Positions 44,101 through 59,853 are shown, counted from the stretch's first letter. The stretch is 64,000 nucleotides of DNA from Minisyncoccota bacterium (GCA_028690055.1 JAQVBZ010000005.1:379-64378); one strand, 5' to 3'. Program-made: numbers and translations. The notes: generated by a model from the letters alone, not told the origin.

Positions 44101-44559
44101 TTTGGTCTTCCTCTTCTGGATTTTTTATGAAGTGTTTATTTATTCTTATGTTTCATGTCGCGAGTATAGAGCTTGCGATATTCAACTGTGCATTTTATCA
44201 TACTTTTACCATATGTCAAGATTATCTTAGACAAAAGATCAAATCCTATTGAGTCTGCATAAAGTAATAGCTTAAACAAGCAATCATTTTTTTTGGAGAG
44301 GGCGGGATTTACCCCTCCGGGGCATAAACTTCTCATCCCGTTATCCTATCACACCAAACAAAAAACCATATAAAAATATGGTCTTTTATTTGGCGGGCAT
44401 CCTCGGGCTGGAACCGTGATCTTTGCAATCCTAGTAAGGCTTTTTAGTAGTTTTTTGGGGTCTTAGAAAATAAGATCCTCGTGCGCTTGTCTTTTCTAAA
44501 AAGTGACAAATGTGACATGATTCTAGGAGTAAATGTTACATTAATATGTAACATTCCTT

Positions 44560-46179: not shown

Positions 46180-47194
46180 ATATGTTGTCTTTAATTATTG
46201 AAATTATAAATAATAAACTTTTTCGATCAAGATGTTTTGATTTGATGTTAATGCTACTTTCCAAGCCGCTGTATACCCTATAAATATCAGCTTTGGGATT
46301 AATATCAAATTGATTAATGGTGAATTCAAGAACTTTCCAAAATTCTGGATTTGAATTCTTATTAAAAAAAGCTCTTGCCAGATTTGCTTTGCAATCCTGT
46401 ATCAAGTCTTTTGTTGCTTCTGTATCCAAGTTATCCGTTTCATTTTTGAAAGATATGGGAATTGATTTGTATTCGAAAATATCACATCCAAGTACTCTAT
46501 TAATAATTAAGGTGTAAATTTCTTTTTTGAATAAATGTCTATTAAACTTTAAAACATCTTCAATTTTTTCAATTTGTTCATTCTCTATACAACTGTTTTT
46601 CTTAGCTGATTGAACATCTCTAATCTCTTCAAAAATATTTTGATAAAAATCATTATTTCTAATTTTTCTGTCTTTAAATTTGGTTATTCTTTTTATATAG
46701 TCGCTTATATCTTTACTATCTTGGACAAAAATAATTTTATTAAAAAAAGATTCGGCATCTTCTTCATTGTTTTTTCCGGTATTGTTTTTAAGCTTATCAA
46801 TGAGGCCATTTTTTATTCTTGATCTTGTATCTTCCTGGAAATTATCCATTCCGAATTCGTCCAGATTTTCTTTAATCAAATATTCTTTGTTCAGTTTAGA
46901 GACAAATAATATAAGGCAGCAAAAATTCAATCCTGATATATGGTTTTTGTACAAAGTAAACAAAAATTCTCCAATTTGTTTTGGATAAAATTTTGAATAA
47001 TTCTTAGATTGGATATCCCATAGCTCGCTATAGCTTTTATCTATGCCTGTAACATCGTTAAAACAATCAATTGTAAATAAATCGACCTGATCACGATCTT
47101 TTCTAAAGCCGACGAGATATAATAACGACTTCGTCTCGAATTCGGTTGCCTTTTTATTATTTCTCTCGGTATTGGTGAAAGTATATATACTCAT
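46169..47194 (-). CDS. Hypothetical protein co-operonic with the SMC-like ATPase (candidate effector)
   Basis: 341 aa. Overlaps the downstream ATPase gene by 11 nt. N-terminal D...D...(D/E)xK-like residues (FTIDCFNDV...WDIQSK) give a weak, unverified nuclease-like hint. Confidence 0.45.
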   Translation of the reverse strand: MSIYTFTNTERNNKKATEFETKSLLYLVGFRKDRDQVDLFTIDCFNDVTGIDKSYSELWDIQSKNYSKFYPKQIGEFLFTLYKNHISGLNFCCLILFVSKLNKEYLIKENLDEFGMDNFQEDTRSRIKNGLIDKLKNNTGKNNEEDAESFFNKIIFVQDSKDISDYIKRITKFKDRKIRNNDFYQNIFEEIRDVQSAKKNSCIENEQIEKIEDVLKFNRHLFKKEIYTLIINRVLGCDIFEYKSIPISFKNETDNLDTEATKDLIQDCKANLARAFFNKNSNPEFWKVLEFTINQFDINPKADIYRVYSGLESSINIKSKHLDRKSLLFIISIIKDNIYAN

Positions 47195-47482
47195 TAGATA
47201 AATCTATAAAAAATACGGTTTAAACTTAGCATATTTTAGCTAAAAATAACTGTTCTTGGCAATTAATAGGCGATAATATTATTTTATTTATATTCGAAAG
47301 TTGCTTTTATTGTTCTTTGGTTAAAATTAATAGATTAACCGTGTAGGGCAGTTCATTATTAACTTTGTTTATAACTTTACCAAGATCTAACTGTTTTGTA
47401 AACAAAAACAGAGCTAAAATAAGCTCTGTTTTTAATTCTCTCTGTGTTGACACGATGTTGCAGTGTTAAGTGAGGATATCTT

Positions 47483-48442
47483 TTATATCCTTCCCTCTGT
47501 AACCAATCGCCAATAGTGATAACCTAATGCAGTTAATTTACAAGATTTCGAATTTTGTGCTGCAAAATACATATACTCTTCACCGACGGGTCTTACTAGA
47601 TTTACACCTTGAAATTTTTGCAAATTTTTAAATATTGCAACATTTTCCGGCTTAGCAATATCAACATTGGTATCTTCAAAAGAAGGATCTAACAAATATT
47701 CAGCCTCAGGAGTAGGAAAATATTCTACAATTTTTCTTAATATATCAGGAGATACTGGAGGCGTGACAGTGCGTAAAGATGTGAAATTAGTAACATTTGT
47801 TTTGAAAACAGGTCTCTGGTCCCATGGACCGAGTGCCTGGTCAATGTAAGCATATATGCCGCCGGGCGTTATGCGTCCCATTAAATCAGCCGCTCCACCT
47901 TGTATGGCATCTAGCAATAAACCTGTAAATACTCCATGTCCGTCAATTTCGGCAGCTGTTTCAGTACTTAGACTTGCTGTTAAAACAACAATCCCTTCAC
48001 TTATTTGAGAAACATGTCCGCCAGATACTTCCGGCGAACCAAAAGACCCGGAATGGCAACAATCCAGAATGATAATTTTATTTTTTATCTTTGATTTATT
48101 GGCTAGGGTCAATATTTCTTCCATAGAAACGCCCTCATCATGTTTTTCATAATCTGGAGTTACTATATATCCACCAGTGATATCTAAATAGCCATGTCCA
48201 GAAAAATATAGCAAGGCTACATCGCCTTCTCCATCGAATAGTTCAACAATTTCGCCTTTTAATTCTGACTTTTTAGGAATATTATTTTTTAATCTCACAG
48301 AAAAGTTTGGAGAACCATCGCCATTCTTTTCGATAACACCAGATAATATTGAAGCGTCGTTTACGCAACCAGTGAGTGGTAAACCGGGGTAGTCATCTAT
48401 TCCAATTAATAATGCTTTTCTCATATTTTTATCTATCTCCAT
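47483..48442 (-). CDS. Caspase-like peptidase (C14 family) with C-terminal domain of unknown function
   Basis: 319 aa. Catalytic His in LYFSGHGY and catalytic Cys in IILDCCHSGSFG, with classic caspase/metacaspase spacing. Confidence 0.75.
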   Translation of the reverse strand: MEIDKNMRKALLIGIDDYPGLPLTGCVNDASILSGVIEKNGDGSPNFSVRLKNNIPKKSELKGEIVELFDGEGDVALLYFSGHGYLDITGGYIVTPDYEKHDEGVSMEEILTLANKSKIKNKIIILDCCHSGSFGSPEVSGGHVSQISEGIVVLTASLSTETAAEIDGHGVFTGLLLDAIQGGAADLMGRITPGGIYAYIDQALGPWDQRPVFKTNVTNFTSLRTVTPPVSPDILRKIVEYFPTPEAEYLLDPSFEDTNVDIAKPENVAIFKNLQKFQGVNLVRPVGEEYMYFAAQNSKSCKLTALGYHYWRLVTEGRI

Positions 48443-48812
48443 TTACTAGAGCTTTTATGTTATCCCATGTCCAACTATAATAACCTTCTAAACCATTTGG
48501 ACTGGGACAAATCTTGTCTTTATAACCTCGGACGCCCACAACAGGGACTCCTGCCTCTTTTGCCATTTCGATCTCCGCTTTAACTCCGCTGCACTGACTA
48601 GTTTTTGTGCCCACCATAACAATAACCAAGTCAGTTTTTTTGATTTTTGTTAAACATTTCTCTTTCCAAGTTCTTTCATCCCAAGGCTCTTTAACAGACC
48701 AATCTTCGATTTCGAAAGGAGAGTCTGGATTTTTTGATTGACCGACAAGCGAGTTTCTTAGAAATTCATCGTTATCAAAATCAAAACTAATAAAAACTTT
48801 CTTTTTAATCAT
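48429..48812 (-). CDS. TIR-like domain protein (DUF1863/TIR_2-type)
   Basis: 127 aa. KVFISFDFDND start. Later SQCSGVKAEIEMAKEAGVPVVGV motif typical of small bacterial TIR-like domains. Overlaps the caspase-like gene by 14 nt. Confidence 0.55.
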   Translation of the reverse strand: MIKKKVFISFDFDNDEFLRNSLVGQSKNPDSPFEIEDWSVKEPWDERTWKEKCLTKIKKTDLVIVMVGTKTSQCSGVKAEIEMAKEAGVPVVGVRGYKDKICPSPNGLEGYYSWTWDNIKALVNGDR

Positions 48813-48822
48813 ATATTTGTAG

Positions 48823-49035
48823 TTATTTAGATTTTCGGTTATAAGGTGACTGGTTCGTCGGTTTTAAGCTGACACCCAGATTGGATGCTTTTTTCTGCAC
48901 TCCGCTAACAGGCCTGCCTAACTTCAAGCTTATTACCCTGGTAGGCATGTTTTCTTTTGCCATTTCTTTCAATTGCTTAACTTCTGCTGGTGTCCATTGT
49001 TTACCGGCATTTTGAATGTACTTGGGGTTTGTCAT
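48823..49035 (-). CDS. GcrA-like small DNA-binding protein
   Basis: 70 aa. WTPAEVKQLKEMAKENMPTRVISLKLGRPVSGVQKKASNLGV resembles the GcrA N-terminal DNA-binding domain. Confidence 0.4.
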   Translation of the reverse strand: MTNPKYIQNAGKQWTPAEVKQLKEMAKENMPTRVISLKLGRPVSGVQKKASNLGVSLKPTNQSPYNRKSK

Positions 49036-49043
49036 ATATTTAA

Positions 49044-49700
49044 TTAGTTCTTAATAACATCTACCACTTTACCATTTATAATGAACTCGTCATCCTCACT
49101 AATATAAATTGGCATATATTCATGATCTGACCGGGCTCGCAAAACAATCCTATTATTTTTTATATCACGGTTATATTCTTTTATGGTAGCCAATCCGTCA
49201 ATAACTGCCAGTACTATATCGCCATTGTTGTAACTCTTTATTTCACGGTCTACCAGTACATAATCACCGCTTTCAATTTTATTGCCATTAACTTCGGCTT
49301 GGTTCATGGAATCTCCGTCAGTTTTAATGGCAAATAACCTGTTTTTATTTCTTGGTAAAAGGCTGGATGATACTTTAAGATATCTTTCAACCTTTTGTTC
49401 GGCATATATAGCCGCTGGTCCACAATTTGCAGCTCCTACTATCGGAATGGAGAATAAAGGACTTTTGCTGACATGGTTATAACCTTTCTTAACGACTTTC
49501 AGTATTCCTTGCTCTAGATTCATCTGTATCAGCCCAGCTTTTTCTAATTGCTGAAGATGGTGTTTAGCAATCTGGGGTTTACCTTGGGCTCCTATAAGCT
49601 CGGCGATTTTTCTTAAGCTCAACGACCCTATGTCTGGGGTGTTGGCGATAAGATTTAATAATTGTTGTTGTGTTATATTCATATGCAATAAATATAGCAC
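49044..49700 (-). CDS. LexA/CI-like repressor (wHTH + S24 peptidase domain)
   Basis: 218 aa. N-terminal winged helix. C-terminal S24 domain with GDSMNQ catalytic Ser motif and conserved Lys. Divergent to the phage-like genes. Confidence 0.75.
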   Translation of the reverse strand: MLYLLHMNITQQQLLNLIANTPDIGSLSLRKIAELIGAQGKPQIAKHHLQQLEKAGLIQMNLEQGILKVVKKGYNHVSKSPLFSIPIVGAANCGPAAIYAEQKVERYLKVSSSLLPRNKNRLFAIKTDGDSMNQAEVNGNKIESGDYVLVDREIKSYNNGDIVLAVIDGLATIKEYNRDIKNNRIVLRARSDHEYMPIYISEDDEFIINGKVVDVIKN

Positions 49701-49797
49701 ACCCCGGGGGATTTCGCAAGTACTTTTGTAAAAGTATTTGACATTTTACACCTAGTAGGTATGATGAAGTTATAAATTAATTCATAAATTTATTTTT

Positions 49798-50208
49798 ATG
49801 GAAAACTACGAGTTGCAATTGAAGCCTTTTGAAAGGAAGGACGGTTATAAGTATAAGGTAATTCGGCTTACCGATGTTACTCTCCATACTTCAAATAAGC
49901 GACCTACTAAGGCTATGGGCAAAAAGATTAAACAAGCGTTCGAACAAAACAAGCCCGGCAGGTTTTATGGAATAAAACCCCATGAAGTAATGGAAGGTGG
50001 TGATTTGCCCACGCTTATCAACAATCTTGTTAAGAATGATCCGAATTTCTTGAAAATGATCCAAGAAGAAGAGAAGAAGGGTTATAAGGTATTGCTCGAG
50101 TTGCCCGAGGAAGGCATTCCTGCTATATTTGGGCCAGATACGGTAGAATTTTTAAATAGCAAGAATGGACAGAGAATAATGAGAGATATTCATAAGCAAG
50201 AAATATAG
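49798..50208 (+). CDS. Hypothetical phage-associated protein
   Basis: 136 aa. First gene of the rightward operon. Confidence 0.4.
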   Translation: MENYELQLKPFERKDGYKYKVIRLTDVTLHTSNKRPTKAMGKKIKQAFEQNKPGRFYGIKPHEVMEGGDLPTLINNLVKNDPNFLKMIQEEEKKGYKVLLELPEEGIPAIFGPDTVEFLNSKNGQRIMRDIHKQEI

Positions 50209-50374
50209 CACTTTTTCACAATCGAATTAATGCGTAGTAAAAAGTAGAATAGCGTATCGCCTAAAAAACCATGCCTATTCCGCGCAAGAAACAAGTCTTA
50301 GACTTAAATGTCGGAGGCCTGTTTCATGTGTGGGATAGGTTTTTTTATATTTAAATTACTAACCATATGAAATT

Positions 50375-51649
50375 ATGGAAAAGTTAAAATGGCACACTGT
50401 GCAAAAAAGGATTAATGATCTGATTCCTCAGGAAGCTAATCCTCGAAAAATTACCGATAAGCAAATGTCGGATTTGAAGAAAAGTTTGTCTAAATTCAAT
50501 CTGGTAGAAATCCCGGCTGTCGATTTAGACGGCAGGATACTAGCAGGGCATCAAAGAATCAAGGCGCTTCAGCTCCTAGGGCGAGGCGAAGAATTGATTG
50601 ATATCAGGATTCCTAATCGTCAGTTAACCGAGGATGAGGCCAAAAGATATCTCCTTGCCAGTAATGCCTTGGGTGGTGACTGGGATTTCGACAAATTAAA
50701 AACCTTTGACTTGGATTTGCTCATTGACATTGGTTTTGATCAGATTGATTTGTCTCATTTCTGGGATAATGAACTCGAAATAAAAGAGGAGGATTTTGAT
50801 GTCGAAGAAGAACTGAAAAAAATAAAAACGCCAATAACGAAACCCGGTGATCTGATACATCTAGGCTGTCATCGTCTGTTATGCGGCGATTCTACTAATC
50901 CGGATAATCTAAAAAAGTTGTTTGGAGGAGAAAAGGCCTCGATGATATTCAGTGATCCGGTTTATAATATAAAACTCGATTATTCAAAGGGCATTGGCGG
51001 CAAAAATGAATATGGCGGTGCGGTTAATGATAATCGAAGCTATGATGAATACAAACAGTTTATCAAAAATTCCCTATTAGCCGCTTTGCCTAATACAAAT
51101 TCGGATTGTCATGTCTTTTATTGGTGTGACCAGACCTATATCGGCCTGATACAAGAATTGTATCGTGAATTAGGCATAATCAATAAACGAGTTTGTTTAT
51201 GGATTAAAAACTCACAAAACCCTACTCCAATGATTGCGTTCAACAAATGCTATGAGCCCGCAGTCTATGGTGTAAAAGGCAAACCATTCATAAACCCAGA
51301 CATAAGGAACTACAATGAGATATTAAACAAGGAACTAGGCACCGGGAACGAGTTATTTGAGGATATACATGATTCCTTGGATATCTGGCTCACCAAAAGG
51401 ATATCAGGTAAAGATTATGAGCATGCAACTAGCAAGCCATCAAAGTTATACGAAAAAGCTATTCGAAGATGCACTAAGCCGGGCGATATCATTCTTGATT
51501 CATTCTCTGGATCGGCCAGCACTATTATGGCTGGAGAACAACTAAAGAGAAAAGTATATGCCATGGAGCTGGAGCCAATCTTCTGTGATTTGGCGATAAG
51601 AAGATATAGAAAATTAACTGGCAGAAAGGAGGTAGTAAAGCATGTCTAA
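50375..51649 (+). CDS. ParB-like nuclease domain fused to DNA methyltransferase (phage-type orphan N6A/N4C MTase)
   Basis: 424 aa. N-terminal ParB/Srx pattern (EIPAVDLDGRILAGHQRIKAL), motif IV-like FSDPVYN, motif I-like DSFSGSASTIMAGE. Confidence 0.8.
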   Translation: MEKLKWHTVQKRINDLIPQEANPRKITDKQMSDLKKSLSKFNLVEIPAVDLDGRILAGHQRIKALQLLGRGEELIDIRIPNRQLTEDEAKRYLLASNALGGDWDFDKLKTFDLDLLIDIGFDQIDLSHFWDNELEIKEEDFDVEEELKKIKTPITKPGDLIHLGCHRLLCGDSTNPDNLKKLFGGEKASMIFSDPVYNIKLDYSKGIGGKNEYGGAVNDNRSYDEYKQFIKNSLLAALPNTNSDCHVFYWCDQTYIGLIQELYRELGIINKRVCLWIKNSQNPTPMIAFNKCYEPAVYGVKGKPFINPDIRNYNEILNKELGTGNELFEDIHDSLDIWLTKRISGKDYEHATSKPSKLYEKAIRRCTKPGDIILDSFSGSASTIMAGEQLKRKVYAMELEPIFCDLAIRRYRKLTGRKEVVKHV

Positions 51650-52064
51650 GAAAAACAGATTACAGCAAGCATTCTTTGAAGAACTAAAGAAAGTTCCTAT
51701 CGTGCTAGTGGCTTGTGAAAAATCCGGCATCTCCCGCAATAGCGTTTATCGTTGGAAACGGGAAGATAAGGAATTTTCCAGGGCGATGGATGAAGCTTTG
51801 GCTGAGGGCGAAGCTCTGGTAAACGATATGAGCGAAAGCCAGCTTCTGACTTTGATCAAAGAAAAGAATTGGTCAGCTATCAGTTTCTGGCTTCGTCATC
51901 GCAATCCAAAATTTAAGGATAAGATAGAGGTGACTTCGAGGAATGAAAACGTTGACGAATTAACGCCATCACAGGCGGAAACTGTACGCCAGGCTTTGAA
52001 ATTGGCCAATATCCTGCCTCAAGATGAACAAGTAACTGATAAGCCTAATAATCCAACTCTATGA
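51642..52064 (+). CDS. Phage terminase small subunit
   Basis: 140 aa. HTH pattern GISRNSVYRWKREDKEF. Overlaps neighbours by ATGTCTAA/ATGA (translational coupling). Directly upstream of the large subunit. Confidence 0.6.
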   Translation: MSKKNRLQQAFFEELKKVPIVLVACEKSGISRNSVYRWKREDKEFSRAMDEALAEGEALVNDMSESQLLTLIKEKNWSAISFWLRHRNPKFKDKIEVTSRNENVDELTPSQAETVRQALKLANILPQDEQVTDKPNNPTL

Positions 52065-53527
52065 AACCGAACAACATGATACCTCAGGCCTTGGTGGAAC
52101 AAATGACTAAGGACAGGAAGATAAGAACAGCAATAACTAAGGAAAGCTTCTCTTATTTCTTTCACTTTTATTATGCTCATTATGTTAAATATGCGACCGC
52201 CGATTTTCAAAAAGAAATCATAAGCTTGGTTGAAAAGAGCGACAAGGAAAATCTCTTTGTCGTGGCCTTCAGAGGTTCGGGTAAGTCTACCGTTATTACT
52301 GCCGCCTATCCGATCTGGGCAATCCTTGGCAAACAAGAAAAGAAATTTGTCGTCATTTTCTGCCAAACTCAAGCTCAGGCCAAGCAGCACATGATGAACT
52401 TGCGACGTGAATTAGAAGATAATGACTTATTAAAAAAAGACCTTGGCCCCTTCAGGGAAAATAGCGATGAGTGGGGCGCGCAATCAATCGTGTTTTCCAA
52501 TACGGATGCTCGTATTACCGTTGCTTCAGTGGATCAAAGTATTCGTGGCATAAGGCACTATCAACATCGACCGGATTTGATTATCTGTGACGATGTCGAG
52601 GATATAAGTTCCACTAAAACTAGGGAGGGAAGAAATAAAACCTATCAATGGCTAAAGAGCGAAGTGATACCAGCTGGTGATAGAGATACCAGATTGATAA
52701 TAGTCGGTAATTTATTACACGAGGATTCCCTGCTTATGAGGTTAAAGGAAGAAAGAGAAAAAGAGGTTATTGATGGCAACTTTCTGTTTTATCCGTTAAT
52801 TGACAAGAAGGGTGATTGTCTATGGCCGGGCAAATACCCAACCGATGAAGATATTGAAAATGAGCGCAGAAAGGTCGGTAATGAGATTACCTGGCAACAA
52901 GAATACCTACTTAATATCGTTCCGTCCGAAGATCAAGCTATATTTCAAGAATGGATAAACTATTACGATGAGATACCGGCACCTCTAAAACTATATGGCG
53001 GTTATAGTTCGTATATGGAAATAAGAATTGGAATTGACCCAGCTATTTCTAAAAGTGATGTCGCTGATTATACTGCTATGGTTCCTGGTATGTTATATGA
53101 AACTACGTCTAACTATAAGCTTTATATTCTCCCTAAAATAATAAATAAGCGTTTAAGCTTCCCTGAAACAGTTGATGCTTGTAAAACATTATATCAGAGC
53201 TACAAAAGAGATTCTGTTTATCCAAAATTCATCATAGAAGATGTGGCTTATCAAAAAGCCTTGCCTCAACAACTGCAAGTCGAGGGTATTTATAATGTAA
53301 TGACAACCAGGCCAGGAAATCAGGATAAAAGAAGTAGACTTATCGTACTAGCTAACCTAATTAAAACTGGACAAATATTGTTCCCAAAGGAAGGAGCGGA
53401 GGAACTAATACAACAGATAGTCCATTTTGGGGTTGAAAAACATGATGACTTAGCTGATGCCTTTGCCAATTTAGCTCACAGCATGATTGAAAAACCGCCG
53501 AGATCGTGCAGAGTCTATTGGGTATAG
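52061..53527 (+). CDS. Phage terminase large subunit
   Basis: 488 aa. Walker A AFRGSGKST, Walker B LIICDDVED, C-terminal RNaseH-like nuclease acidic residues. Confidence 0.8.
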   Translation: MKPNNMIPQALVEQMTKDRKIRTAITKESFSYFFHFYYAHYVKYATADFQKEIISLVEKSDKENLFVVAFRGSGKSTVITAAYPIWAILGKQEKKFVVIFCQTQAQAKQHMMNLRRELEDNDLLKKDLGPFRENSDEWGAQSIVFSNTDARITVASVDQSIRGIRHYQHRPDLIICDDVEDISSTKTREGRNKTYQWLKSEVIPAGDRDTRLIIVGNLLHEDSLLMRLKEEREKEVIDGNFLFYPLIDKKGDCLWPGKYPTDEDIENERRKVGNEITWQQEYLLNIVPSEDQAIFQEWINYYDEIPAPLKLYGGYSSYMEIRIGIDPAISKSDVADYTAMVPGMLYETTSNYKLYILPKIINKRLSFPETVDACKTLYQSYKRDSVYPKFIIEDVAYQKALPQQLQVEGIYNVMTTRPGNQDKRSRLIVLANLIKTGQILFPKEGAEELIQQIVHFGVEKHDDLADAFANLAHSMIEKPPRSCRVYWV

Positions 53528-53672
53528 CTAGAAAAGTTATCGGTAAGGCTATATATTCGAATATAAAGTAAAAACTTTGCAGACTGCATAAAATTGTCGA
53601 CTTTTCATTTACTTTTAGCGGAAAAAGAGGTAAAGTAATGGTAATTTGATAATAAAAAAACTATAAAATCAT

Positions 53673-53864
53673 ATGATAAAACCAGTAAACGTTACGTCCT
53701 TAAACGCATCTGATGAGTTATCTTGTGAATGTAATAAATGCGGTTGGGTAGGCAAGCTCAAATTGAATGGATATATTGTTAATACAGACAATGACGGTAA
53801 TCCATTAGGAAATATCGACGAGAACTGTCCTGAGTGCGGGGCTAGTTTAAATGAAAATATATAG
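53673..53864 (+). CDS. Small zinc-ribbon protein
   Basis: 63 aa. CECNKCGW...CPECG. Confidence 0.35.
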   Translation: MIKPVNVTSLNASDELSCECNKCGWVGKLKLNGYIVNTDNDGNPLGNIDENCPECGASLNENI

Positions 53865-53916
53865 GAGGTGTGCCAAATAAAAATGTCTATAATAAATAAC
53901 ATAAACTACTAAAAAC

Positions 53917-54390
53917 ATGGATAACCTAATATTTGCCAGAAATTTAGTTAAAGGTAAAATCGCAGAAACCATATTTGCCCAGATGCTCAGAGAAACAAAA
54001 GATTTCACAGTCTTAGAATTTGGCTATGAGAAAATCATTCCTGAATTAGTACAACAGGGATATGATGAAAATAATTTGATGCTTGAAACTTTGAGAACAG
54101 CACCAGATTTTGCAGTTATTAATCAAAAAACGAGAGAGGTTAGACTTATCGAGGTAAAATATCAGCGTACTATAAATTATGACTATGTTTTAAAATATGC
54201 AGAAAAGATGAGCCAGTCATGGAATCCGTCTTATCTTTTTGTTGCTACTCTGGATGGCTTTTATTTTGATGAAATTAATAATGTTATTAATGATAAAGGC
54301 AGGATTTCTCCTTTAAAACATCCCCAGATAAGCAATGATTTACAAGATAAATATCTAAAGATATTAACGGATTTCGAGAAAAACAATTAA
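53917..54390 (+). CDS. PD-(D/E)xK nuclease-fold protein (YraN/UPF0102-like)
   Basis: 157 aa. E (KIAETIFAQ) ... APDFAVIN ... VRLIEVKYQ gives a canonical E-PD-ExK arrangement. Confidence 0.5.
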   Translation: MDNLIFARNLVKGKIAETIFAQMLRETKDFTVLEFGYEKIIPELVQQGYDENNLMLETLRTAPDFAVINQKTREVRLIEVKYQRTINYDYVLKYAEKMSQSWNPSYLFVATLDGFYFDEINNVINDKGRISPLKHPQISNDLQDKYLKILTDFEKNN

Positions 54391-54406
54391 GAAATATTTA
54401 AAAAAT

Positions 54407-55696
54407 ATGCCTGAAAAGAAAAATAGACGAGAGGAATATTTAGAAAGTACAAACGAGGACAAAGAAATATATTTTTTTATTGATGAATTTCAAAAAATAA
54501 ATATTAAATCTCGGGAAGTGTATATCAAAACCAATAAAGTTATTCATCATCCATTTAATAAATCTGGAAACTTTAAATATAAAAAAATAACAGAAATTAT
54601 ATATGAAGGATTGCCAGATCCACTGCCTAGAGGTTTTATCAAAGATTGGAGGCTTGGGTATGGTTTTACGAAAGTATTGAATCCAATACTTTATTTGATT
54701 GAAACAAAATTTGATGTGTCGAAAGTTGTCGTGAAGCCAAAAGGAAAATTCATGATAAAAAATAGAACGGTATACCTTAGTTATGAAGATTTGAATAAGT
54801 TCTATCCGAAAATGGACACTCTTATGAAAGTTCAGAGTAGTCAAAAAGAAGCGTTAGTCTCAAAATATCTTAGTCAGTATCTACCTACAGAATTTAAAGA
54901 TAGTAAACAAAAATATATAAAAGGATCAATTTATTCGATTGTCACAGACCAAATTGGTAAGGATGGATCAATTTCAAAGGATGATTATGATGCTATGCTT
55001 GAGCTAGTTGTATCGAAGTCAAGCGAGCAAACGATTGAATCGAAAAAAATAGTTTTAGCCACAAAGGAAAAAATCGAAAAAATATTCTTAGAAGATGGGG
55101 TTAAAGATTTTAAAAAAATATTAATTTTAAAATCTGTTTCTGGAGGATTTGAGAAAAAATGGGAACAGTTTTTCAAGGAGAATACATGGATTATCTCCAA
55201 TCTGTTCTCTCTCCCTGCATTGCTGTTTGCTAATCAGGCTTATGTGGGCGGAAAGGAAATCTTCAATACTAATGGAAAAGTGACGGATTTTTTATTTAGG
55301 AACAAATTGACCGATAATTTGGCAATTATTGAACTCAAAACTCATAAAACTGAGCTATTGTCCAAGAAGCCTTACAGAGGAGATGATGTATACTCATTAT
55401 CCGAAGAACTATCTGGCGCCGTTAATCAAGTATTAGACCAAAGGCAAAATTTACTAAATGATTTTTATGCCTTAAGATGCAAAACTGGCAATACGAATCA
55501 ATTTGAATCATATAATTCTAGATGTCTTATAATCGCTGGTAAAATCGAAGATCTTCCTAAAAATGGTAAAAGAAGTTTTGAAATTTTCCGAAATAATCTA
55601 CATGGCGTTGAAATTGTTACATTTGATGAGGTGCTGGAGAAAATGGAAACTTTTGTTTCTTTAATTAAGACGGATGCTAAAAAAAGAAAGAGATAG
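54407..55696 (+). CDS. Large PD-(D/E)xK nuclease-domain protein (Shedu/DUF4263-like candidate)
   Basis: 429 aa. C-terminal half carries D...DNLAIIELK (hydrophobic strand + ExK) and ends ...GVEIVTFDEVLEKME. The family assignment is tentative. Confidence 0.35.
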   Translation: MPEKKNRREEYLESTNEDKEIYFFIDEFQKINIKSREVYIKTNKVIHHPFNKSGNFKYKKITEIIYEGLPDPLPRGFIKDWRLGYGFTKVLNPILYLIETKFDVSKVVVKPKGKFMIKNRTVYLSYEDLNKFYPKMDTLMKVQSSQKEALVSKYLSQYLPTEFKDSKQKYIKGSIYSIVTDQIGKDGSISKDDYDAMLELVVSKSSEQTIESKKIVLATKEKIEKIFLEDGVKDFKKILILKSVSGGFEKKWEQFFKENTWIISNLFSLPALLFANQAYVGGKEIFNTNGKVTDFLFRNKLTDNLAIIELKTHKTELLSKKPYRGDDVYSLSEELSGAVNQVLDQRQNLLNDFYALRCKTGNTNQFESYNSRCLIIAGKIEDLPKNGKRSFEIFRNNLHGVEIVTFDEVLEKMETFVSLIKTDAKKRKR

Positions 55697-55764
55697 TTAG
55701 GTATTCGTAAAAAGATTTTTACGACTTTATTTATATAGGTGATAACAAATTTAATATAAACGCG

Positions 55765-56193
55765 ATGTTTTCTATAGGCAATATCTGTTCAATAATTTCC
55801 GTTCCATTTGCTTCATCCGCATCTTCTTTCTTATGGCAGATTATTCTCTTGCTATGGCCGTGGTACTGGCTGGGCATATTTCTCTTTCTTATTACATGGA
55901 TAATCTGGGAAATAATAACTCGTAACGGTACGGCACATTATAATTCTAAAAATGGCTTTTCTCCTTCTTTTAATCGTTTTGTCGGTAGTGGTACTTATGC
56001 AGGTTTGCAGGCATTAGTCTATTTATTTTTTGAAAAGTTTTTTGGCGATTCTGTATATTGCATGGTATGGCCATACGAAATTCATCTCGTTGTATTTCTT
56101 TCATCGGGATTGTTGCTACATCTGTCTGGATTTTGGCCTTATCTTTGGGAACCAAGCGGACAACGATACCACAAAAAGAGACATTATCGTTAG
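55765..56193 (+). CDS. Hypothetical membrane protein
   Basis: 142 aa, about 4 hydrophobic segments. Confidence 0.4.
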   Translation: MFSIGNICSIISVPFASSASSFLWQIILLLWPWYWLGIFLFLITWIIWEIITRNGTAHYNSKNGFSPSFNRFVGSGTYAGLQALVYLFFEKFFGDSVYCMVWPYEIHLVVFLSSGLLLHLSGFWPYLWEPSGQRYHKKRHYR

Positions 56194-56318
56194 ATTATAA
56201 TACTCCAAACAGTTATAATAACCACTTACAAGTGGTTATTATTGTTAACATAGCTAGTCATCCTAGCCAATATCAGCTAAAATAATAGGTTCGTATAATA
56301 ACATATTAATATAATTCT

Positions 56319-57422
56319 ATGAACGATAAACCATATAATCACTTAAAGGATCGCATATATTACAGTGAACTTTACGATAAGCTTACTATCGAAAAATGTC
56401 AGTGGTGGGAGAAGCGCCAATATTCTAAAGACATTTCTAAACTAAAAGGCAAAGAAAAGGAAATCGAAGAAGCTAAAGAAAGATGGTTTCATAATGCGGT
56501 TATACCTATAGCCCTGTATTTTATTAAAGCAGATCGCGCTTCTAAGAAGTCTGAAACAATCCAAGGGTGGATGAAACGAGATAAAGAGAAAGACGAGAAA
56601 GTTATTAATGCCAAAAAACCGCAAGGCGTTCGGTGCTTAGGCTGTAGCTCACCCTTGGAAAACTGCATATCACGTGATCTTATGAATAATCATAAGGGAA
56701 AAGAAGAAGTGCTTTTTATGTTTGAATGCTCTAAATGCGGAAAACGCCGAGTTTATTGGGAAGATGGAACAGAATGGGAGCATAAGCCAACTTGTATAAA
56801 ATGTAATTTTGAAGTGCAGGCAGAGAGTAAAAGAGAGAAAGATATTATTATCCATATATGTTCTTGTTCACACTGCGGTCATGTGGAGACTGACGTATGG
56901 GATTTAAATGAAAGAAAGGAGGAAAAGATAGATCCAGACTTTGAAGCCAATCGAAAGAAATATTGCATTTCCGAACAAGAAGGATATGAAATTATAAGCC
57001 GAGCAGAACAGATGGGAAAATTAGTTGAAAAATTTAAAGATAAAGAAGAAAATAAAGATATTTATGATGCGGTTAGTAAAATTAAAAAGCTAAATATCGC
57101 AGAGTTACAAGATCTTCTTAATTCTGTGATGGAAAATAATGGCTATATTAAACTTGAATTTGAAAAGCCTGAATTTCAGAAAGATGTTATCTTGGGTTTT
57201 AGCCTTCAAGACAACAAGCCCGGTCGGGAAAAATATGACAGCGTTCACAATCTTCAAAAGCTTATAAAAGAGACTCTTACACCTACAAACTGGAGATTGA
57301 TGAGCGATGGAATCATATATCGTTTAGGGTTCCTGCAAGGCAGACTTAAAGGTATTGAAGGCGAAGAAAATCTCTTGAAACTAGTCGAAAACGACCTTAA
57401 GAAAAAGGCTAAAAGTAGGTAG
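56319..57422 (+). CDS. Multi-zinc-ribbon protein, hypothetical
   Basis: 367 aa with four CxxC pairs (CLGC, CSKCGK, CIKC, CSCSHCGH) and a Lys/Glu-rich C-terminus. Confidence 0.45.
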   Translation: MNDKPYNHLKDRIYYSELYDKLTIEKCQWWEKRQYSKDISKLKGKEKEIEEAKERWFHNAVIPIALYFIKADRASKKSETIQGWMKRDKEKDEKVINAKKPQGVRCLGCSSPLENCISRDLMNNHKGKEEVLFMFECSKCGKRRVYWEDGTEWEHKPTCIKCNFEVQAESKREKDIIIHICSCSHCGHVETDVWDLNERKEEKIDPDFEANRKKYCISEQEGYEIISRAEQMGKLVEKFKDKEENKDIYDAVSKIKKLNIAELQDLLNSVMENNGYIKLEFEKPEFQKDVILGFSLQDNKPGREKYDSVHNLQKLIKETLTPTNWRLMSDGIIYRLGFLQGRLKGIEGEENLLKLVENDLKKKAKSR

Positions 57423-57511
57423 ATAAACTGTTGGTAACTAGCTCTTAGCAAAAAATAATATTTATGATATTATTGCTGGACATCTAGATGTTTTTAGTTT
57501 AAAATGGTAAT

Positions 57512-57716
57512 TGACAATTGATGGCTGAAAGGCCAGGCTACCTAAACTCAGACTTCATGTCTGGGCATGGTGCTTCAAGACCCAACCAAGACACTGACCT
57601 CCACGTTCAGCGACTCTTGGTTGGGCTATGTCTGGAAACGGACATAGGGCCGCAAGGCCTAGCTGGCGTGGAGACTTTTGGATCTCTACGACCAGCTACT
57701 GCATAGCTGGTTTTTA
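57512..57716 (+). ncRNA. Candidate structured small RNA (GC-rich, >=6 hairpins incl. GAAA and GCAA tetraloops) ending in an intrinsic terminator
   Basis: Hairpins CAGAC-UUCAU-GUCUG, CCCAACCAAGA/UCUUGGUUGGG (11 bp), CUAUGUC-UGGAAACG-GACAUAG, GGCC-GCAA-GGCC, GUGGAGA/UCUCUAC. Long-range GCCAGGCUA/UAGC-UGGC pairing. Terminator CCAGCUA-CUGCA-UAGCUGG+U5. GC about 55% versus about 33% in the flanks. Confidence 0.4.
57692..57716 (+). terminator. Rho-independent terminator (CCAGCTA-ctgca-TAGCTGG-TTTTT)
   Basis: Perfect 7-bp stem plus T-run. This is the 3' end of the structured RNA candidate. Confidence 0.55.
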
Positions 57717-57740
57717 TTAATTAAATAAAACATTAAAACC

Positions 57741-58385
57741 ATGAACGAGGAAACAACGAAGTGTCCTAAGTGCAAAGAAGAAGTTTTAAAAGGTGCGAAA
57801 AAGTGCAAGCATTGTGGTGCGGATCTTAGAAATTGGTTTATGCGTCACAAAATCATCTCTGTATTTTTAGTTCTTATGTTTATCGGCATCATAAGTGGAG
57901 GAAGTAATCCAAATAACTCAAACAATGGGCAAAATTCCAATGGCATTCAAAACGATACTAAAGCGGAACAAAAGACTGGCAAAATAAATGAAACTATTTC
58001 TGTCGGAAATTTTAGCTACAGAGTGCAGAAAGCGGAACAGGCTCAGTCGGTTGGTAACCAATATATTAACCATGATGCCTCTGGAGTTTATGAAATCGTA
58101 TCTTTAACACTCAGAAATAATGACAAAGAATCACGTTATGCAGACAGCAATATGTTTAAACTGATGGATAATCAAGGCAGATCATTTGTCGTTTCTACGG
58201 AAGCTACTAGTGCTTATTCTATAGCCAACGATAATCAGTACGATCTGTTCTTAAAACAAGCCAATCCCGGTCTTGAAATAAACGGAGTGCTTATCTTTGA
58301 TATTCCCCAAGATGCCAGTGGTCTTAAACTTGAAGTAAGCGGCGGATTTGGTAGTCCGGAAAAAGCCTACATAGAACTTAACTAA
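57741..58385 (+). CDS. Zinc-ribbon / TM / extracellular-domain protein (DUF4352-like architecture)
   Basis: 214 aa. CPKC...CKHCG ribbon, one TM (IISVFLVLMFIGIISGG), Asn/Gln-rich linker, C-terminal beta-rich domain. Confidence 0.5.
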   Translation: MNEETTKCPKCKEEVLKGAKKCKHCGADLRNWFMRHKIISVFLVLMFIGIISGGSNPNNSNNGQNSNGIQNDTKAEQKTGKINETISVGNFSYRVQKAEQAQSVGNQYINHDASGVYEIVSLTLRNNDKESRYADSNMFKLMDNQGRSFVVSTEATSAYSIANDNQYDLFLKQANPGLEINGVLIFDIPQDASGLKLEVSGGFGSPEKAYIELN

Positions 58386-58569
58386 ATCTATATTTAGACG
58401 TTTAAAGAATACCCTCTGTATCTTCTTAGATCAGAGGGTATTTTTATTTGTTATGCCAACCAAACTCAATTCTTCGATAAGATAACCTGTATCTGTTCGC
58501 TCTTAGCAAAAGCTTAAAAGTGTGTCATTAATGGAGGCGTAGATTTAACTAAATAATCAACTAAATCAT

Positions 58570-59853
58570 ATGCTTCCATTAGAAACTAAGCTGAAATACT
58601 GCTTATATGCTAGAAAAAGCACTGAATCAGATGAGCGACAAGCCTTATCAATTGATTCTCAAGTTAAAGAAATGCTTCAAATAGCCGAACGAGAAAACTT
58701 AGAAATCGTTGATATCAGGAGAGAATCAAAATCAGCCAAAGACTCAGGTAACCGTCCTATCTTCAAAGAGTTAATCAAAGATATAACGGAAGAAAAGTTC
58801 AACGCTATCATTACCTGGGCTCCCGATAGACTTTCTAGAAACGCTGGCGATTTAGGATCGCTAGTTGATTTAATGGATGAGAAAAAATTAATGAGCATTC
58901 GTACTTTTGGCCAAACTTTTAGTAATTCTCCAAATGAAAAGTTTCTGCTCATGATTTTATGTTCTCAGGCCAAACTAGAAAATGATAATCGAGGGATAAA
59001 CGTAAAAAGAGGTTTAAGGGCAAGATGCGAGATGGGCTTATGGCCGACCTGTCCGCCAACGGGATACTTTAAAGAAAAGCGAGTTGATCATAAAGGACAA
59101 TGCTTAGTTGATCCTGATAGAGGTCCGGTAATAAAGCAAATGTTTGAGAAGGTTGCTTATGAGAAATGGTCCGGCCGAAAGCTTTATAACTGGCTTAGAT
59201 TCGATTTAAACTTTAGGACAGCTTTAGGTAAAAAACACTTAAGTCTCGGTAATATTTATCGACTTCTAGAAAATACCTTCTATTATGGCCCTTTTGAATA
59301 TCCTCGTGGTAGTGGTAACTGGTATCAGGGAAAACATGAACCGATAATCACCAAAGAAGTATTCGATTTAGTCCAAGAACAGATGAAGAATTCCCAACTA
59401 GTCAGACGAGAGAATATTGAGTTTGCCTTTACTAAAGTAATGAAGTGCGGTTTATGCGGTTCGGGAATTTCAGCCACGGAAAAATTTAAGAAGTTAAAAG
59501 ATGGCGGCTATAATCGCCATGTCTACTACGGATGTACCAAAGCAAAAGACAATAATTGTAAATCAGGCTATATTAGCGAAGAAGACCTGATTAAACAATT
59601 ACAAAAACAAATCGATAAATTGGATTTTAAAAAAGTTTCTATTCAAGATAAAATTCAGGGAGAAATCAAAAGATTCAAAAAGTTTCAAATCATGGCAACT
59701 GGCAAAAATGACAATATCGACGTAAGCGACGTCGATATTAAAAATTACATCAAATTCTTGTTAAAAGAAGGAGACGATCAAGAGAAACGAGAACTACTCA
59801 CATGCTTAAATGGGGAGATATTGTTGAAGAATAAGGTGATTGTGATTAAATAA
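58570..59853 (+). CDS. Large serine recombinase (phage-type integrase)
   Basis: 427 aa. Resolvase catalytic domain with YARKSTESDERQ (nucleophile Ser), recombinase domain, zinc-ribbon CGLCGSG...YYGCTK. Confidence 0.85.
   Translation: MLPLETKLKYCLYARKSTESDERQALSIDSQVKEMLQIAERENLEIVDIRRESKSAKDSGNRPIFKELIKDITEEKFNAIITWAPDRLSRNAGDLGSLVDLMDEKKLMSIRTFGQTFSNSPNEKFLLMILCSQAKLENDNRGINVKRGLRARCEMGLWPTCPPTGYFKEKRVDHKGQCLVDPDRGPVIKQMFEKVAYEKWSGRKLYNWLRFDLNFRTALGKKHLSLGNIYRLLENTFYYGPFEYPRGSGNWYQGKHEPIITKEVFDLVQEQMKNSQLVRRENIEFAFTKVMKCGLCGSGISATEKFKKLKDGGYNRHVYYGCTKAKDNNCKSGYISEEDLIKQLQKQIDKLDFKKVSIQDKIQGEIKRFKKFQIMATGKNDNIDVSDVDIKNYIKFLLKEGDDQEKRELLTCLNGEILLKNKVIVIK

What the first reader, a model, noticed from the sequence alone, without database searches (positions are those of the whole stretch)
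48823..59853. Integrative phage-like element lacking virion genes (prophage remnant or phage satellite) flanked by defense cargo
A LexA/CI-like S24 repressor faces a rightward operon: a 136-aa protein, the ParB-MTase fusion, TerS and TerL (coupled by ATGA overlaps), a Zn-ribbon protein, two PD-(D/E)xK nucleases, membrane and Zn-ribbon proteins, a structured RNA, a secreted protein and a large serine recombinase. No portal, capsid, tail or lysis genes are visible in ~11 kb. The element is therefore a degraded prophage or a satellite-like island that hijacks helper structural proteins. Defense-like genes sit at both ends, the TIR-caspase and SMC module to the left and the Abi/GmrSD island to the right, consistent with defense hotspots of mobile elements.
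Basis: partly seen in the sequence, partly recalled or inferred. Interest (0 to 1): 0.55.

Follow-up and report, generated by a model that had tools for sequence, protein, structure and literature searches.

The report
Terminase-carrying capsid-less island of CPR bacteria
This is not a decayed prophage but one copy of a compact, conserved mobile island found in hundreds of ultra-small (CPR/Patescibacteria) bacterial species; it carries its own DNA-packaging enzymes, a repressor and a serine recombinase but no virus-shell genes, and it ferries anti-phage defence genes.

Summary
The gene calls hold. S24/LexA-like repressor, ParB-methyltransferase, TerS, TerL and large serine recombinase (LSR) all pass HMM checks. 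No virion gene lies in the region, and the source contig ends 866 bp past the window.

"Degraded prophage" is rejected. The order MTase-TerS-TerL-(cargo)-LSR recurs in 459 GTDB species representatives, all loci read being CPR-type MAGs, and in 116 loci I read. TerL is 60-88% identical and catalytic residues are invariant. No portal or capsid family occurs within ±10 kb. As a control, TerL relatives at 37-38% identity do sit beside portal, head and tail genes.

The element is larger than reported, about 44391-59853 (15.5 kb). A conserved 165-bp non-coding left module marks the left end, so PDC-M22 and TIR-caspase are internal cargo. Homology stops exactly at the LSR stop codon. A discrete slot between TerL and LSR (53531-58501) holds Shedu and a LOOT RNA-DUF4352 cassette.

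The best reading is a helper-dependent, satellite-like defence island. This is inferred: no helper, att site, circular form or replication gene was found. No description turned up in the literature library.

The parts
44293..44345 (+). Short GC-rich remnant (GGAGAGGGCGGGATTTACC...CTTCTCATCCC). It resembles the two ends of an unannotated structured-RNA-like gene that lies immediately left of the left module in many related loci. It may be the insertion target or its remnant.
   Evidence: Alignment of left flanks and nhmmer hits in L018, L019, L058, L146, L164, L193 and L181. Rfam and ARAGORN do not recognise it.
44360..44389 (.). Bidirectional terminator-like hairpin (A6-CCATAT-AAAA-ATATGG-T-run) abutting the left module. 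Its position is conserved across loci but its sequence is not.
   Evidence: Sequence; equivalent hairpins in most loci.
44391..44556 (+). Left module (LM), a conserved non-coding block and the proposed left end of the element. It contains two co-varying direct repeats (ATCCTCGGGC at 44399 and ATCCTCGTGC at 44475). These are followed by AAAAGTGACAAATGTGACA and the palindrome GTTACA-N6-TGTAAC.
   Evidence: blastn. nhmmer finds it in about 45 related loci, always in + orientation and left of the core. Alignment. No RNA consensus structure on either strand. Its exact 25-mer occurs in 72 metagenome contigs.
44560..47194 (-). Left cargo: PDC-M22B (LmuB-like ATPase, 44560-46179) and PDC-M22A (46169-47194).
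   Evidence: PADLOC 7e-201 and 9.1e-131.
47483..48812 (-). Left cargo: caspase-like C14 peptidase (47483-48442) and ThsB-like TIR protein (48429-48812). The two genes overlap.
   Evidence: Pfam 7.6e-19 and 3.6e-10; PADLOC. The same pair sits next to p70/S24 in L005 and L180.
48823..49035 (-). p70, a small protein co-transcribed with the repressor (possible regulator).
   Evidence: phrog_323 7.4e-12; present in 7 loci.
49044..49700 (-). S24 / LexA-CI-like autocleavable repressor.
   Evidence: Pfam 1e-22; phrog_4 1.6e-25; NCBIfam LexA 3.2e-25, below cutoff. Other regulator families replace it in other loci.
49719..49765 (+). Operator-like palindrome AGTACTTTTGTAAAAGTAT next to the best sigma-70-like promoter of the region (TTGACA-16-TATGAT), in the divergent intergenic region.
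49798..50208 (+). p136, first gene of the rightward operon. It is specific to the core, and its function and fold are unknown.
   Evidence: 25 homologues, all unannotated. AF2 model has pLDDT 72, with no PDB fold match.
50313..50344 (+). Terminator-like hairpin between p136 and the packaging operon.
50375..51649 (+). ParB-N domain fused to an N6/N4 DNA methyltransferase.
   Evidence: conserved in 75 of 83 loci.
51642..52064 (+). Small terminase subunit (TerS).
   Evidence: PHROG terS families; invariant position in 81 of 83 loci.
52061..53527 (+). Large terminase subunit (TerL). Walker A, Walker B and nuclease acidic residues are invariant across the family.
   Evidence: alignment invariants; more than 4188 homologues.
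53531..58501 (+). Right cargo slot, which is only about 50-130 bp in compact relatives. It holds a 63-aa Zn-ribbon ORF (53673-53864), p157 (53917-54390), Shedu SduA (54407-55696), p142 (55765-56193) and p367 (56319-57422). It also holds a partial copy of the LSR-proximal site (57427-57455), LOOT RNA (57539-57660, terminator 57690-57712) and a Zn-ribbon-DUF4352 protein (57741-58385).
   Evidence: Homology breakpoints at 53530 and 58502; spacer comparison; gap distribution; PADLOC, Pfam and Rfam; CTTAGCAAAA copies at 57444 and 58502.
58502..58569 (+). Conserved LSR-proximal non-coding sequence (CTTAGCAAAAGCTTAAAAGTGTGTCATTAATGGAGG...). It is the right half of the imperfectly palindromic TerL-LSR spacer of compact relatives and a candidate recombination site or promoter.
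58570..59853 (+). Large serine recombinase. Conservation among loci ends exactly at its stop codon, which is the proposed right end.
   Evidence: Pfam; 90-94% identity in about 20 loci; right-end alignment.

Best explanation
Window 44391-59853 is one 15.5-kb member of a widespread family of 6-17-kb chromosomal islands of CPR/Patescibacteria.

Shown:
- The family has a fixed backbone. It comprises a non-coding left module, an exchangeable repressor module (here S24/LexA-like plus p70), p136, ParB-MTase, TerS, TerL and a large serine recombinase at the right end.
- There are two variable cargo slots, one from the left module to the repressor and one from TerL to the LSR. They are filled mostly with anti-phage genes.
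- The backbone carries no virion and no recognisable replication genes.
- The TerL clade is separate from true phage TerLs, which sit next to portals.

Inferred mechanism:
- The element sits repressed. DNA damage or phage infection inactivates the S24 repressor, and the rightward operon is expressed from the promoter at 49738.
- ParB-MTase methylates the DNA.
- TerS recognises a site on the element. The near-invariant GTGACA repeats of the left module are the candidate.
- TerL docks on procapsids supplied by an infecting or co-resident helper phage. It packages rightwards from the left module through the cargo and the LSR gene.
- In the new cell the LSR inserts the element.
- Packaging competition together with the cargo (Shedu, TIR-caspase, PDC-M22) would protect the host population. 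In function this is a phage satellite that brings a complete terminase but no capsid.
For: 1. The enzymes are real and under selection. TerL scores phrog_38 3e-88 and resembles T7 gp19. Walker A (G72, K75, S76, T77), Walker B (D177, D178, E180) and nuclease acidic residues (D326, E393, D462, D463) are invariant in 23 diverse homologues.
2. The architecture recurs. 459 GTDB species representatives carry a relative. MTase-TerS-TerL is invariant, and the LSR lies downstream in 58 of 83 loci at 0.1-10 kb. The same holds in IMG/VR loci down to about 40% TerL identity.
3. No conserved portal or capsid family lies within ±10 kb, and none appears among the families shared by cargo proteins from 25 loci. 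The positive control works: TerL relatives at 37-38% identity (L118, L119) are followed by portal (1e-99), protease, major head, adaptor and tail genes.
4. The boundaries are defined. The left module is present in about 45 loci, always in the same orientation and always left of the core. Conservation stops at the LSR stop codon and the downstream flanks are unrelated. Element sizes are 6.0-16.7 kb.
5. Several features indicate mobility:
   - Genomic contexts are unrelated.
   - One MAG carries two copies (L075 and L077).
   - The structure is mosaic. For example, the cargo next to the left module is 97% identical between L009 and L019, whose cores do not reach the 88% identity threshold of that search. 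L005 is closest to the window on the left, while L002 and L004 are closest in the LSR.
   - About 20 of the 72 metagenome contigs end within about 135 nt of the left module.
6. A regulatory switch is present: a divergent repressor, a palindromic operator and a strong promoter.
7. The cargo is defence-rich here and elsewhere. Examples are Shedu, TIR-caspase, PDC-M22, type III RM, DRT-type reverse transcriptases and Sie-like proteins.
Against: - No helper phage is identified.
- No excised circle or circular contig was found.
- No att sites, target duplication or empty site was found.
- No replication initiator, primase or origin was demonstrated in the core.
- No capsid-size or morphogenesis-interference gene was found.
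- Known satellites without capsid genes carry at most TerS, not TerL, so a TerL-bearing capsid-less satellite has no experimental precedent that I know of.
- The left module also occurs in islands that lack the MTase-TerS-TerL core within 8-10 kb (L148, L165, L170, L184, L189, L204). It is therefore not strictly a terminase-linked site, which weakens the left-module-as-pac idea.
- All genomes are MAGs, and taxon labels in the record titles are often unreliable.
Confidence: 0.55

Rival explanations
1. An LSR-mobilised defence island in which the MTase-TerS-TerL module is itself an anti-phage device rather than the element's transfer machinery. The module might compete with or sabotage the packaging of invading phage DNA, or act as a methylation-guarded nuclease. 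Transfer would occur by other routes, for example natural transformation of the excised circle.
For: The element sits in and carries dense defence content. Left-module...LSR islands exist without any terminase (L165), so the recombinase and left module may be the mobility unit and the terminase a module carried on it. An S24 repressor would give infection- or damage-triggered expression. No replication or capsid functions were found.
Against: The MTase-TerS-TerL-LSR linkage is far more conserved than any cargo. TerL is 60-88% identical and present in every locus fetched, since the loci were retrieved through TerL, whereas cargo families each occur in a dozen loci or fewer. No PADLOC defence system is built on a terminase, and only the MTase of the core matched PADLOC models. 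The full TerS plus TerL pair, with both ATPase and nuclease sites conserved, is what packaging needs.
Confidence: 0.2
2. A domesticated, host-beneficial packaging module (gene-transfer-agent-like) whose capsid and tail genes lie elsewhere in the genome. The LSR would act as a regulatory or excision switch.
For: Sequence conservation is very high for phage-type genes. No structural genes are linked. Some GTAs have scattered loci (general knowledge).
Against: Genomic context is variable, the structure is mosaic and one MAG carries two copies. Only 459 of the 185,579 species representatives in the collection (bacteria and archaea together) carry it, so the distribution is patchy rather than universal. 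Regulator modules are exchangeable as in temperate elements. The remaining 43 kb of this window shows no obvious phage cluster, although I did not scan it systematically against HMM libraries.
Confidence: 0.13
3. An ordinary prophage remnant left by deletion of the structural and lysis genes.
For: All backbone genes are phage-type. The TerL clade branches from TerLs of real phages with a portal next door.
Against: The identical 'deletion' would have to recur in hundreds of species with intact, conserved ORFs and invariant catalytic residues. In compact members the LSR follows TerL by about 125 bp with a conserved spacer. No pseudogenised structural fragments were seen.
Confidence: 0.05

Closest known systems
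PICIs / SaPIs (phage-inducible chromosomal islands)
   Same: Size of about 10-15 kb. Integrated and repressed, with divergent regulatory promoters. Carry their own TerS to redirect packaging into helper capsids. Carry defence and accessory cargo. Mosaic.
   Different: PICIs use tyrosine integrases, a helper-antirepressor-controlled Stl rather than an S24 autocleavable repressor, and a pri-rep/ori module. They do not encode TerL. Here there is an LSR, TerL is present and no replication module was recognised. This comparison rests on general knowledge and de Sousa et al. 2023 (PMC10085698, listed, not read in detail).
Capsid-forming PICIs (cf-PICIs)
   Same: Satellites that carry their own packaging machinery.
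   Different: The abstract listed (bioRxiv 10.1101/2022.09.08.507074) says cf-PICIs encode all the proteins needed to make their own capsids, and the title says they steal only phage tails. That their packaging genes include TerS and TerL is my recollection, not read. The CPR element has no capsid, portal or protease genes.
PLE of Vibrio cholerae
   Same: A phage satellite that integrates with a large serine recombinase and restricts its helper. This is taken from the title and abstract of PMC9638900 plus general knowledge.
   Different: PLE encodes its own replication initiator and no terminase subunits of this type. It is gammaproteobacterial and has a different gene set. No sequence relationship was tested here.
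LSR-mobilised islands and transposons (SCCmec ccr, Tn4451 TnpX, Tn5397 TndX; skin/SPbeta-type excision elements)
   Same: A large serine recombinase at or near one end of a cargo-bearing chromosomal element.
   Different: None of these carries a TerS/TerL/ParB-MTase backbone. Their att sites are known, whereas here they are not.
Integrons (functional analogy only)
   Same: A discrete slot adjacent to the recombinase gene where cassettes accumulate. In L011 two 59-bp copies of the recombinase-proximal site flank a 4.7-kb cassette. In the window, two CTTAGCAAAA copies flank the LOOT-DUF4352 cassette.
   Different: The recombinase is serine-type, not an IntI tyrosine recombinase. There are no attC hairpins. 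Repeated sites were detectable in only 2 loci, so capture by site-specific recombination is a lead, not a finding.

Membership tests
Intact or defective Caudoviricetes prophage | Virion module (portal, major capsid, tail) and lysis genes contiguous with the terminase | tested here: not met
   No such PHROG or Pfam hits in the window region. No conserved family downstream of TerL in 81 loci. The contig ends 866 bp after the window. The control loci L118 and L119 show that these genes are detectable when present.
Intact or defective Caudoviricetes prophage | Terminase small and large subunits | tested here: met
   phrog_4044 1.4e-12 and phrog_38 3.1e-88; NCBIfam; PDB T7 gp19.
PICI / SaPI | Tyrosine integrase at one end | tested here: not met
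   The only recombinase is a large serine recombinase.
PICI / SaPI | Primase-replicase (pri-rep) and origin | tested here: not met
   No primase, helicase or initiator family in the core. p136 has no fold match. An SF1 helicase (f24) occurs in the left cargo of only about 5 loci.
PICI / SaPI | Own TerS, with helper TerL used | tested here: inconclusive
   TerS is present, but the element also encodes TerL. Helper dependence is untestable here.
cf-PICI | Own capsid, portal, protease and head-tail connectors | tested here: not met
P4-like satellite | psu/sid/delta capsid-size genes and alpha primase | tested here: not met
   The PHROG scan of the core proteins gave no such annotation.
Phage satellite (generic, functional definition) | Transfer inside particles made by a helper phage | not testable with these tools
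   Needs virion-fraction sequencing or culture. No helper was identified.
Integrative element moved by a large serine recombinase | LSR with resolvase, recombinase and zinc-ribbon domains | tested here: met
   Pfam 1.4e-21, 3.5e-12 and 6.7e-8.
Integrative element moved by a large serine recombinase | Defined attL/attR and an empty attB in relatives | tested here: inconclusive
   The ends are defined by conservation. No shared core repeat, empty site or circle junction was found. Candidate sites are the palindrome ATCCTCGTGC-TA-GCACGAGGAT abutting the left module in 10 contigs and the TerL-LSR spacer.
Gene transfer agent | Structural gene cluster in the host genome, with packaging of random host DNA | not tested
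No structural genes lie within ±10 kb.
Shedu (cargo) | SduA with a DUF4263 nuclease domain | tested here: met
   PADLOC 1.4e-84; Pfam SduA_C 7.1e-25.
LOOT RNA (Rfam RF03000) | Score above the family gathering threshold over the full model | tested here: met
   73.9 bits against 46.4, covering model positions 1-121.

The most novel reading that the evidence does not exclude
This would be a previously unrecognised, CPR-wide class of mobile element. It is a capsid-less, replication-gene-less island that brings a complete terminase (TerS plus TerL), a ParB-methyltransferase and a large serine recombinase. It is bounded by a conserved protein-binding left module and spreads by commandeering procapsids of CPR phages. 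The slot next to the recombinase gene would act as a serine-recombinase-based cassette-capture site for defence genes. If so, it would be the first satellite-type element described for Patescibacteria and a new satellite strategy: steal the shell, bring the motor.
Probability: 0.4. Interest if true: 0.8.

Novelty: new variant of a known kind. Interest (0 to 1): 0.66.

Why it matters
CPR/Patescibacteria are a large share of bacterial diversity. They are almost uncultured, mostly lack CRISPR, and their mobile elements and phages are barely known.

A conserved, easily recognised element present in hundreds of species would give three things:
- A marker for horizontal transfer and phage-host-satellite interactions in CPR.
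- An explanation of how defence islands move between these reduced genomes.
- A natural toolkit for genetics in organisms that currently have none: a compact LSR with nearby candidate sites, plus a terminase with a candidate packaging signal.

It also widens the satellite concept, because a capsid-less element that encodes TerL has not been characterised. Finally, it places the orphan LOOT RNA in a defined genetic context.

Tried and rejected
- Nucleotide search of the 11-kb region against 50,697 phage genomes found no match. The best phage TerL by tblastn is about 25-28% identical, so no close cultured relative exists.
- Circular or free forms: none of 35 whole-contig loci has terminal overlaps.
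- Direct repeats or att cores shared by the two ends: the longest common strings are 5-8 nt and inconsistent across 25 loci.
- Empty-site or alternative-context look-ups with window flank proteins gave nothing usable.
- Left module as an RNA: RNAalifold finds no consensus structure on either strand, and there is no Rfam hit. I treat it as a DNA-level array of protein-binding sites.
- Integron-like repeated sites: a systematic self-search found a duplicated LSR-proximal site only in L011 (L075 has a second LSR gene). This was downgraded to a lead.
- Helper via shared iterons: the exact 18-mer AAAGTGACAAAAGTGACA occurs in dense arrays inside the replication modules of two 55-kb viral contigs, L129 and L139. 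Their proteins resemble phages of Actinobacteria, Firmicutes and Bacteroidota. There is no link to CPR and a chance match of a 9-mer iteron is plausible, so I did not adopt this.
- Genetic-code test in the 'Gracilibacteria' locus L025 was uninformative, because the whole locus reads in code 11.
- Literature searches for a prior description found none in the library. Terms covered Patescibacteria, Parcubacteria or CPR combined with terminase, serine recombinase, prophage or satellite. This does not prove absence.

Full report
**Checking the observation**

- The repressor (49044-49700, -) has a Peptidase_S24 domain (1e-22). It aligns over its whole length to LexA, but below the curated cutoff.
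- 50375-51649 is a ParB-N/N6-N4 methyltransferase fusion.
- 51642-52064 matches four PHROG small-terminase families.
- 52061-53527 is a large terminase. It scores phrog_38 3e-88. It has a T7-type N-terminus and a psiM2_ORF9 C-terminal nuclease domain above cutoff. It also matches T7 gp19 in the PDB.
- 58570-59853 is a three-domain large serine recombinase (LSR).
- The 'structured RNA' is Rfam LOOT (RF03000), 73.9 bits against a gathering score of 46.4. It has its own promoter-like site and terminator.
- One cargo gene is a clear Shedu SduA (PADLOC 1.4e-84).

Minor corrections apply. Only TerS/TerL overlap by ATGA; MTase/TerS overlap by 8 nt. A second PD-(D/E)xK nuclease could not be verified. 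The 'SMC module' is PADLOC candidate system PDC-M22.

No virion or lysis family is hit. TerL is 100% identical to a protein on a 64,866-bp contig of a 'Candidatus Pacebacteria' MAG.

**What the comparison with other genomes shows**

The TerL has no close relative among 50,697 phage genomes; the best is about 25-28% identical. It does have more than 4,188 homologues in metagenomic proteins. The top 120 are 65-88% identical, and those that carry a name come from Patescibacteria-group MAGs, often on contigs of 0.1-0.9 Mb.

A scan of one genome per GTDB species found relatives in 459 species. In 83 loci with ±10 kb of flank:
- The order ParB-MTase, TerS, TerL is invariant.
- An LSR on the same strand follows TerL in 58 of 83 loci.
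- An S24 repressor and p136 lie upstream in about 30.

Thirty-six IMG/VR contigs show the same cassette down to about 40% TerL identity. Some have a second MTase or a tandem TerL paralogue.

All-against-all clustering of 1,415 ORFs found no other family that is both frequent and positionally fixed. In particular, nothing portal- or capsid-like lies downstream of TerL. A PHROG scan of 116 cargo proteins from 25 loci returned helicases, reverse transcriptases, methyltransferases, Sie-like proteins and transposases. No head or tail family appeared among those shared by at least two proteins.

The control is decisive. The two most distant relatives (L118 and L119, 37-38% identity) are ordinary phage fragments. 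In them TerL is followed by portal (1e-99), protease or scaffold, major head protein, adaptor, neck, tail and endolysin-like genes. The portal-less cassette is thus a distinct clade derived from a phage terminase lineage, not the product of repeated decay. Walker A, Walker B and the nuclease acidic residues are invariant in 23 diverse members.

**Boundaries and anatomy**

On the right, a 22-locus alignment shows that conservation stops exactly at the LSR stop codon. The downstream sequences are unrelated.

A profile of it hits about 45 loci. It is always in the same orientation and always left of the core, at 0.9-6.4 kb from the MTase. It contains:
- two direct repeats (ATCCTCGGGC and ATCCTCGTGC) whose sequence co-varies between loci;
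- the nearly invariant AAAAGTGACAAAAGTGACA;
- a GTTACA-N6-TGTAAC palindrome.

It has no consensus RNA structure on either strand. A terminator-like hairpin of variable sequence abuts it on the left.

Taking these ends, family members measure 6.0-16.7 kb, and the window copy is 15,464 bp. PDC-M22 A/B and the TIR-caspase pair therefore lie inside the element, in a leftward cargo slot. The HARE-HTH nuclease, trypsin-like protein and GmrSD-HNH/EcoRI-like RM genes to the right lie outside the conserved unit.

A second slot lies between TerL and the LSR. In 29 loci the two genes are under 130 bp apart. In 25 loci they are separated by 0.6-8.2 kb. In the window, homology to compact relatives ends at 53530 and resumes at 58502. 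The closest relative (L005) shares p157, p142 and p367 but has a 1,001-aa gene where the window has Shedu, and it lacks the LOOT-DUF4352 unit.

The compact spacer is an imperfect palindrome...AAGTTATCGAC AAGTTGCCAAC AGC-TA-GCTG CTTAGCAAAAGC.... In the window its two halves flank the cargo, and a partial extra copy at 57427-57455 separates two cassettes. In L011 two 59-bp copies flank a 4.7-kb cassette. This suggests site-specific capture, but the pattern was detectable in only two loci.

**Evidence for mobility**

- Flanking genes differ among loci.
- One MAG has two copies (L075 and L077).
- Identity is mosaic. L005 is nearest on the left (TerS 96%, p70 97%), while L002 and L004 are nearest in the LSR (94%).
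- L009 and L019 share left-module-adjacent cargo at 97% identity, while their cores do not reach the 88% threshold of that search.
- The exact left-module 25-mer occurs in 72 metagenome contigs. About 20 of them end within about 135 nt of it, as expected if the left flank differs among co-occurring genomes.
- Regulator modules are swapped between members (S24, f12, f9, f19, f36), as in temperate-phage immunity regions.

What is missing: no circular contig, no shared end repeat, no empty site, and no replication gene in the backbone. The left module also occurs in islands without the terminase core within 8-10 kb. One example is L165, which has the left module, a helicase, an RM system and a distant LSR. 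The left module and LSR may therefore be the basic mobility pair, and the packaging module a very common but separable component.

**Most likely mechanism (inferred)**

The element is held silent by the S24 repressor. A palindromic operator sits next to the best promoter of the region (TTGACA-16-TATGAT, 49738-49765).

Damage or infection would derepress p136 and then the translationally coupled MTase-TerS-TerL operon, which lies past a terminator-like hairpin at 50313. TerS/TerL would cut and package element DNA into procapsids of a helper phage, and the methyltransferase would pre-protect the DNA. Restriction-modification genes are frequent in and around these islands. The LSR would integrate the element in the recipient.

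The invariance of the GTGACA repeats across sub-families contrasts with the variable repressor and p136. This makes TerS or the ParB domain the likeliest binders. The co-varying ATCCTCGKGC repeats appear as a perfect palindrome with a central TA abutting the left module in 10 contigs. They are the best candidates for recombinase half-sites.

I put this satellite-like reading at 0.55. The main rivals are:
- the terminase module is itself a defence device on an LSR island (0.2);
- a GTA-like domesticated module with capsid genes elsewhere (0.13);
- a plain prophage remnant (0.05).

**Comparison with known systems**

Functionally it is nearest to PICIs/SaPIs. These are similar in size, repressed, carry their own TerS and carry defence cargo. 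It fails their membership tests, however. It has a serine rather than a tyrosine integrase, no pri-rep module, and it encodes TerL.
- cf-PICIs encode their own capsids, whereas this element has no capsid genes.
- PLE shares the use of an LSR but nothing else that I could test.
- Integrons are only a functional analogy for the cargo slot.

Searches of the paper library for CPR, Patescibacteria or Parcubacteria with terminase, recombinase, prophage or satellite terms found no description of this cassette. I therefore rate it a new variant of a known kind (phage-satellite-like or LSR island). Mobility and helper dependence remain to be shown.

**Verdict**

The coordinates need extending to 44391. 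'Degraded prophage' is wrong. 'Satellite-like island' is the best available explanation but is unproven. Interest is 0.66.

Noticed in passing
window 57477-58385; also L011 12447-12614(-), L028 19495-19637(-), L046 6194-6345(-), L076 13003-13134(+), L089, L031, L043, L038: LOOT RNA (Rfam RF03000, an orphan sRNA motif) recurs in at least 10 related loci. It usually lies directly upstream of a Zn-ribbon/DUF4352 membrane protein gene, and the pair occurs in either orientation in or near the TerL-LSR cargo slot. In the window it has its own promoter-like site and terminator. This gives LOOT a genetic context: CPR islands, paired with DUF4352.
   Followed up: partly
L018 3406-3540, L164 541-676, L193 3978-4112, L146 67-201, L058 6021-6157, L019 222-366; short remnant at window 44293-44345: A GC-rich, roughly 140-nt RNA-like gene starting GCGGAGAGGnAGGGATTCGGTC and ending ...CCGGCTTTCGAATCTC. 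It has hairpins showing compensatory changes and its own terminator, and it sits immediately left of the left module in many loci. Its 5' end recalls the tRNA-like domain of tmRNA, but ARAGORN and Rfam call nothing. It could be an unannotated CPR RNA that serves as the insertion target.
   Followed up: partly
L143, L189, L182, L156, L170, L196, L185, L179, L165, L172 (directly left of the left module): A perfect palindrome, (GG)ATCCTCGTGC-TA-GCACGAGGAT, abuts the left module. Its half-site equals the co-varying repeat found twice inside the left module. This looks like a full recombinase site next to half-sites.
   Followed up: no
L129 4181-4450; L139 11385-11712: Two 55-kb IMG/VR viral contigs carry dense bidirectional arrays of the same 9-mer (AAAGTGACA) that is duplicated in the left module. 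The arrays lie inside replication modules (primase-helicase, exonuclease, DNA polymerase), so they look like iteron origins. This may be chance or a clue that the left module mimics a phage origin. No CPR link was shown.
   Followed up: partly
L173 8451-9437, L198 10071-10934, L185 1019-2011, L076 3722-4924, L077 119-1099; L075 1110-2384 and L163 3033-4394: A second, distant serine recombinase (33-37% identical to the window LSR) often lies 0.5-1.5 kb left of the left module on the same strand. In L075 and L163 a same-family LSR occupies that position, which may mean tandem elements.
   Followed up: no
window 47483-48812 (also L005 293-1622, L180): Overlapping TIR (ThsB-like) and caspase-like C14 peptidase genes are conserved as a pair next to p70/S24. 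From memory this resembles the recently described TIR-caspase ('type IV Thoeris') defence. This was not tested here.
   Followed up: no
window 63297-63878 (-): The EcoRI-like adenine methyltransferase ORF matches only the C-terminal half of the Pfam model (positions 182-345 of 345). The gene may be split or truncated, or its 5' half may lie in another frame near the window end. Its partner is a GmrSD_N-HNH type II REase at 62132-63295.
   Followed up: no
L095, L098, L099, L100, L101 (IMG/VR); L062: Some distant family members carry two tandem TerL paralogues (45-48% identical to the window TerL) before the LSR. Many carry a second methyltransferase after the ParB-MTase.
   Followed up: no
L002 3511-3774, L017 4807-5070, L179: An 87-aa gene (family f83) is inserted inside the left module, exactly between the ATCCTCGTGCGC repeat and the GTGACA repeats. 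That repeat may therefore be an insertion or recombination point.
   Followed up: no
window 43000-64000: G+C drops from 0.42-0.47 to 0.28-0.39 from about 43 kb to the end of the window. The low-GC zone therefore extends beyond both ends of the conserved element. Host genes are almost all on the minus strand, whereas the element's packaging operon is on the plus strand.
   Followed up: partly
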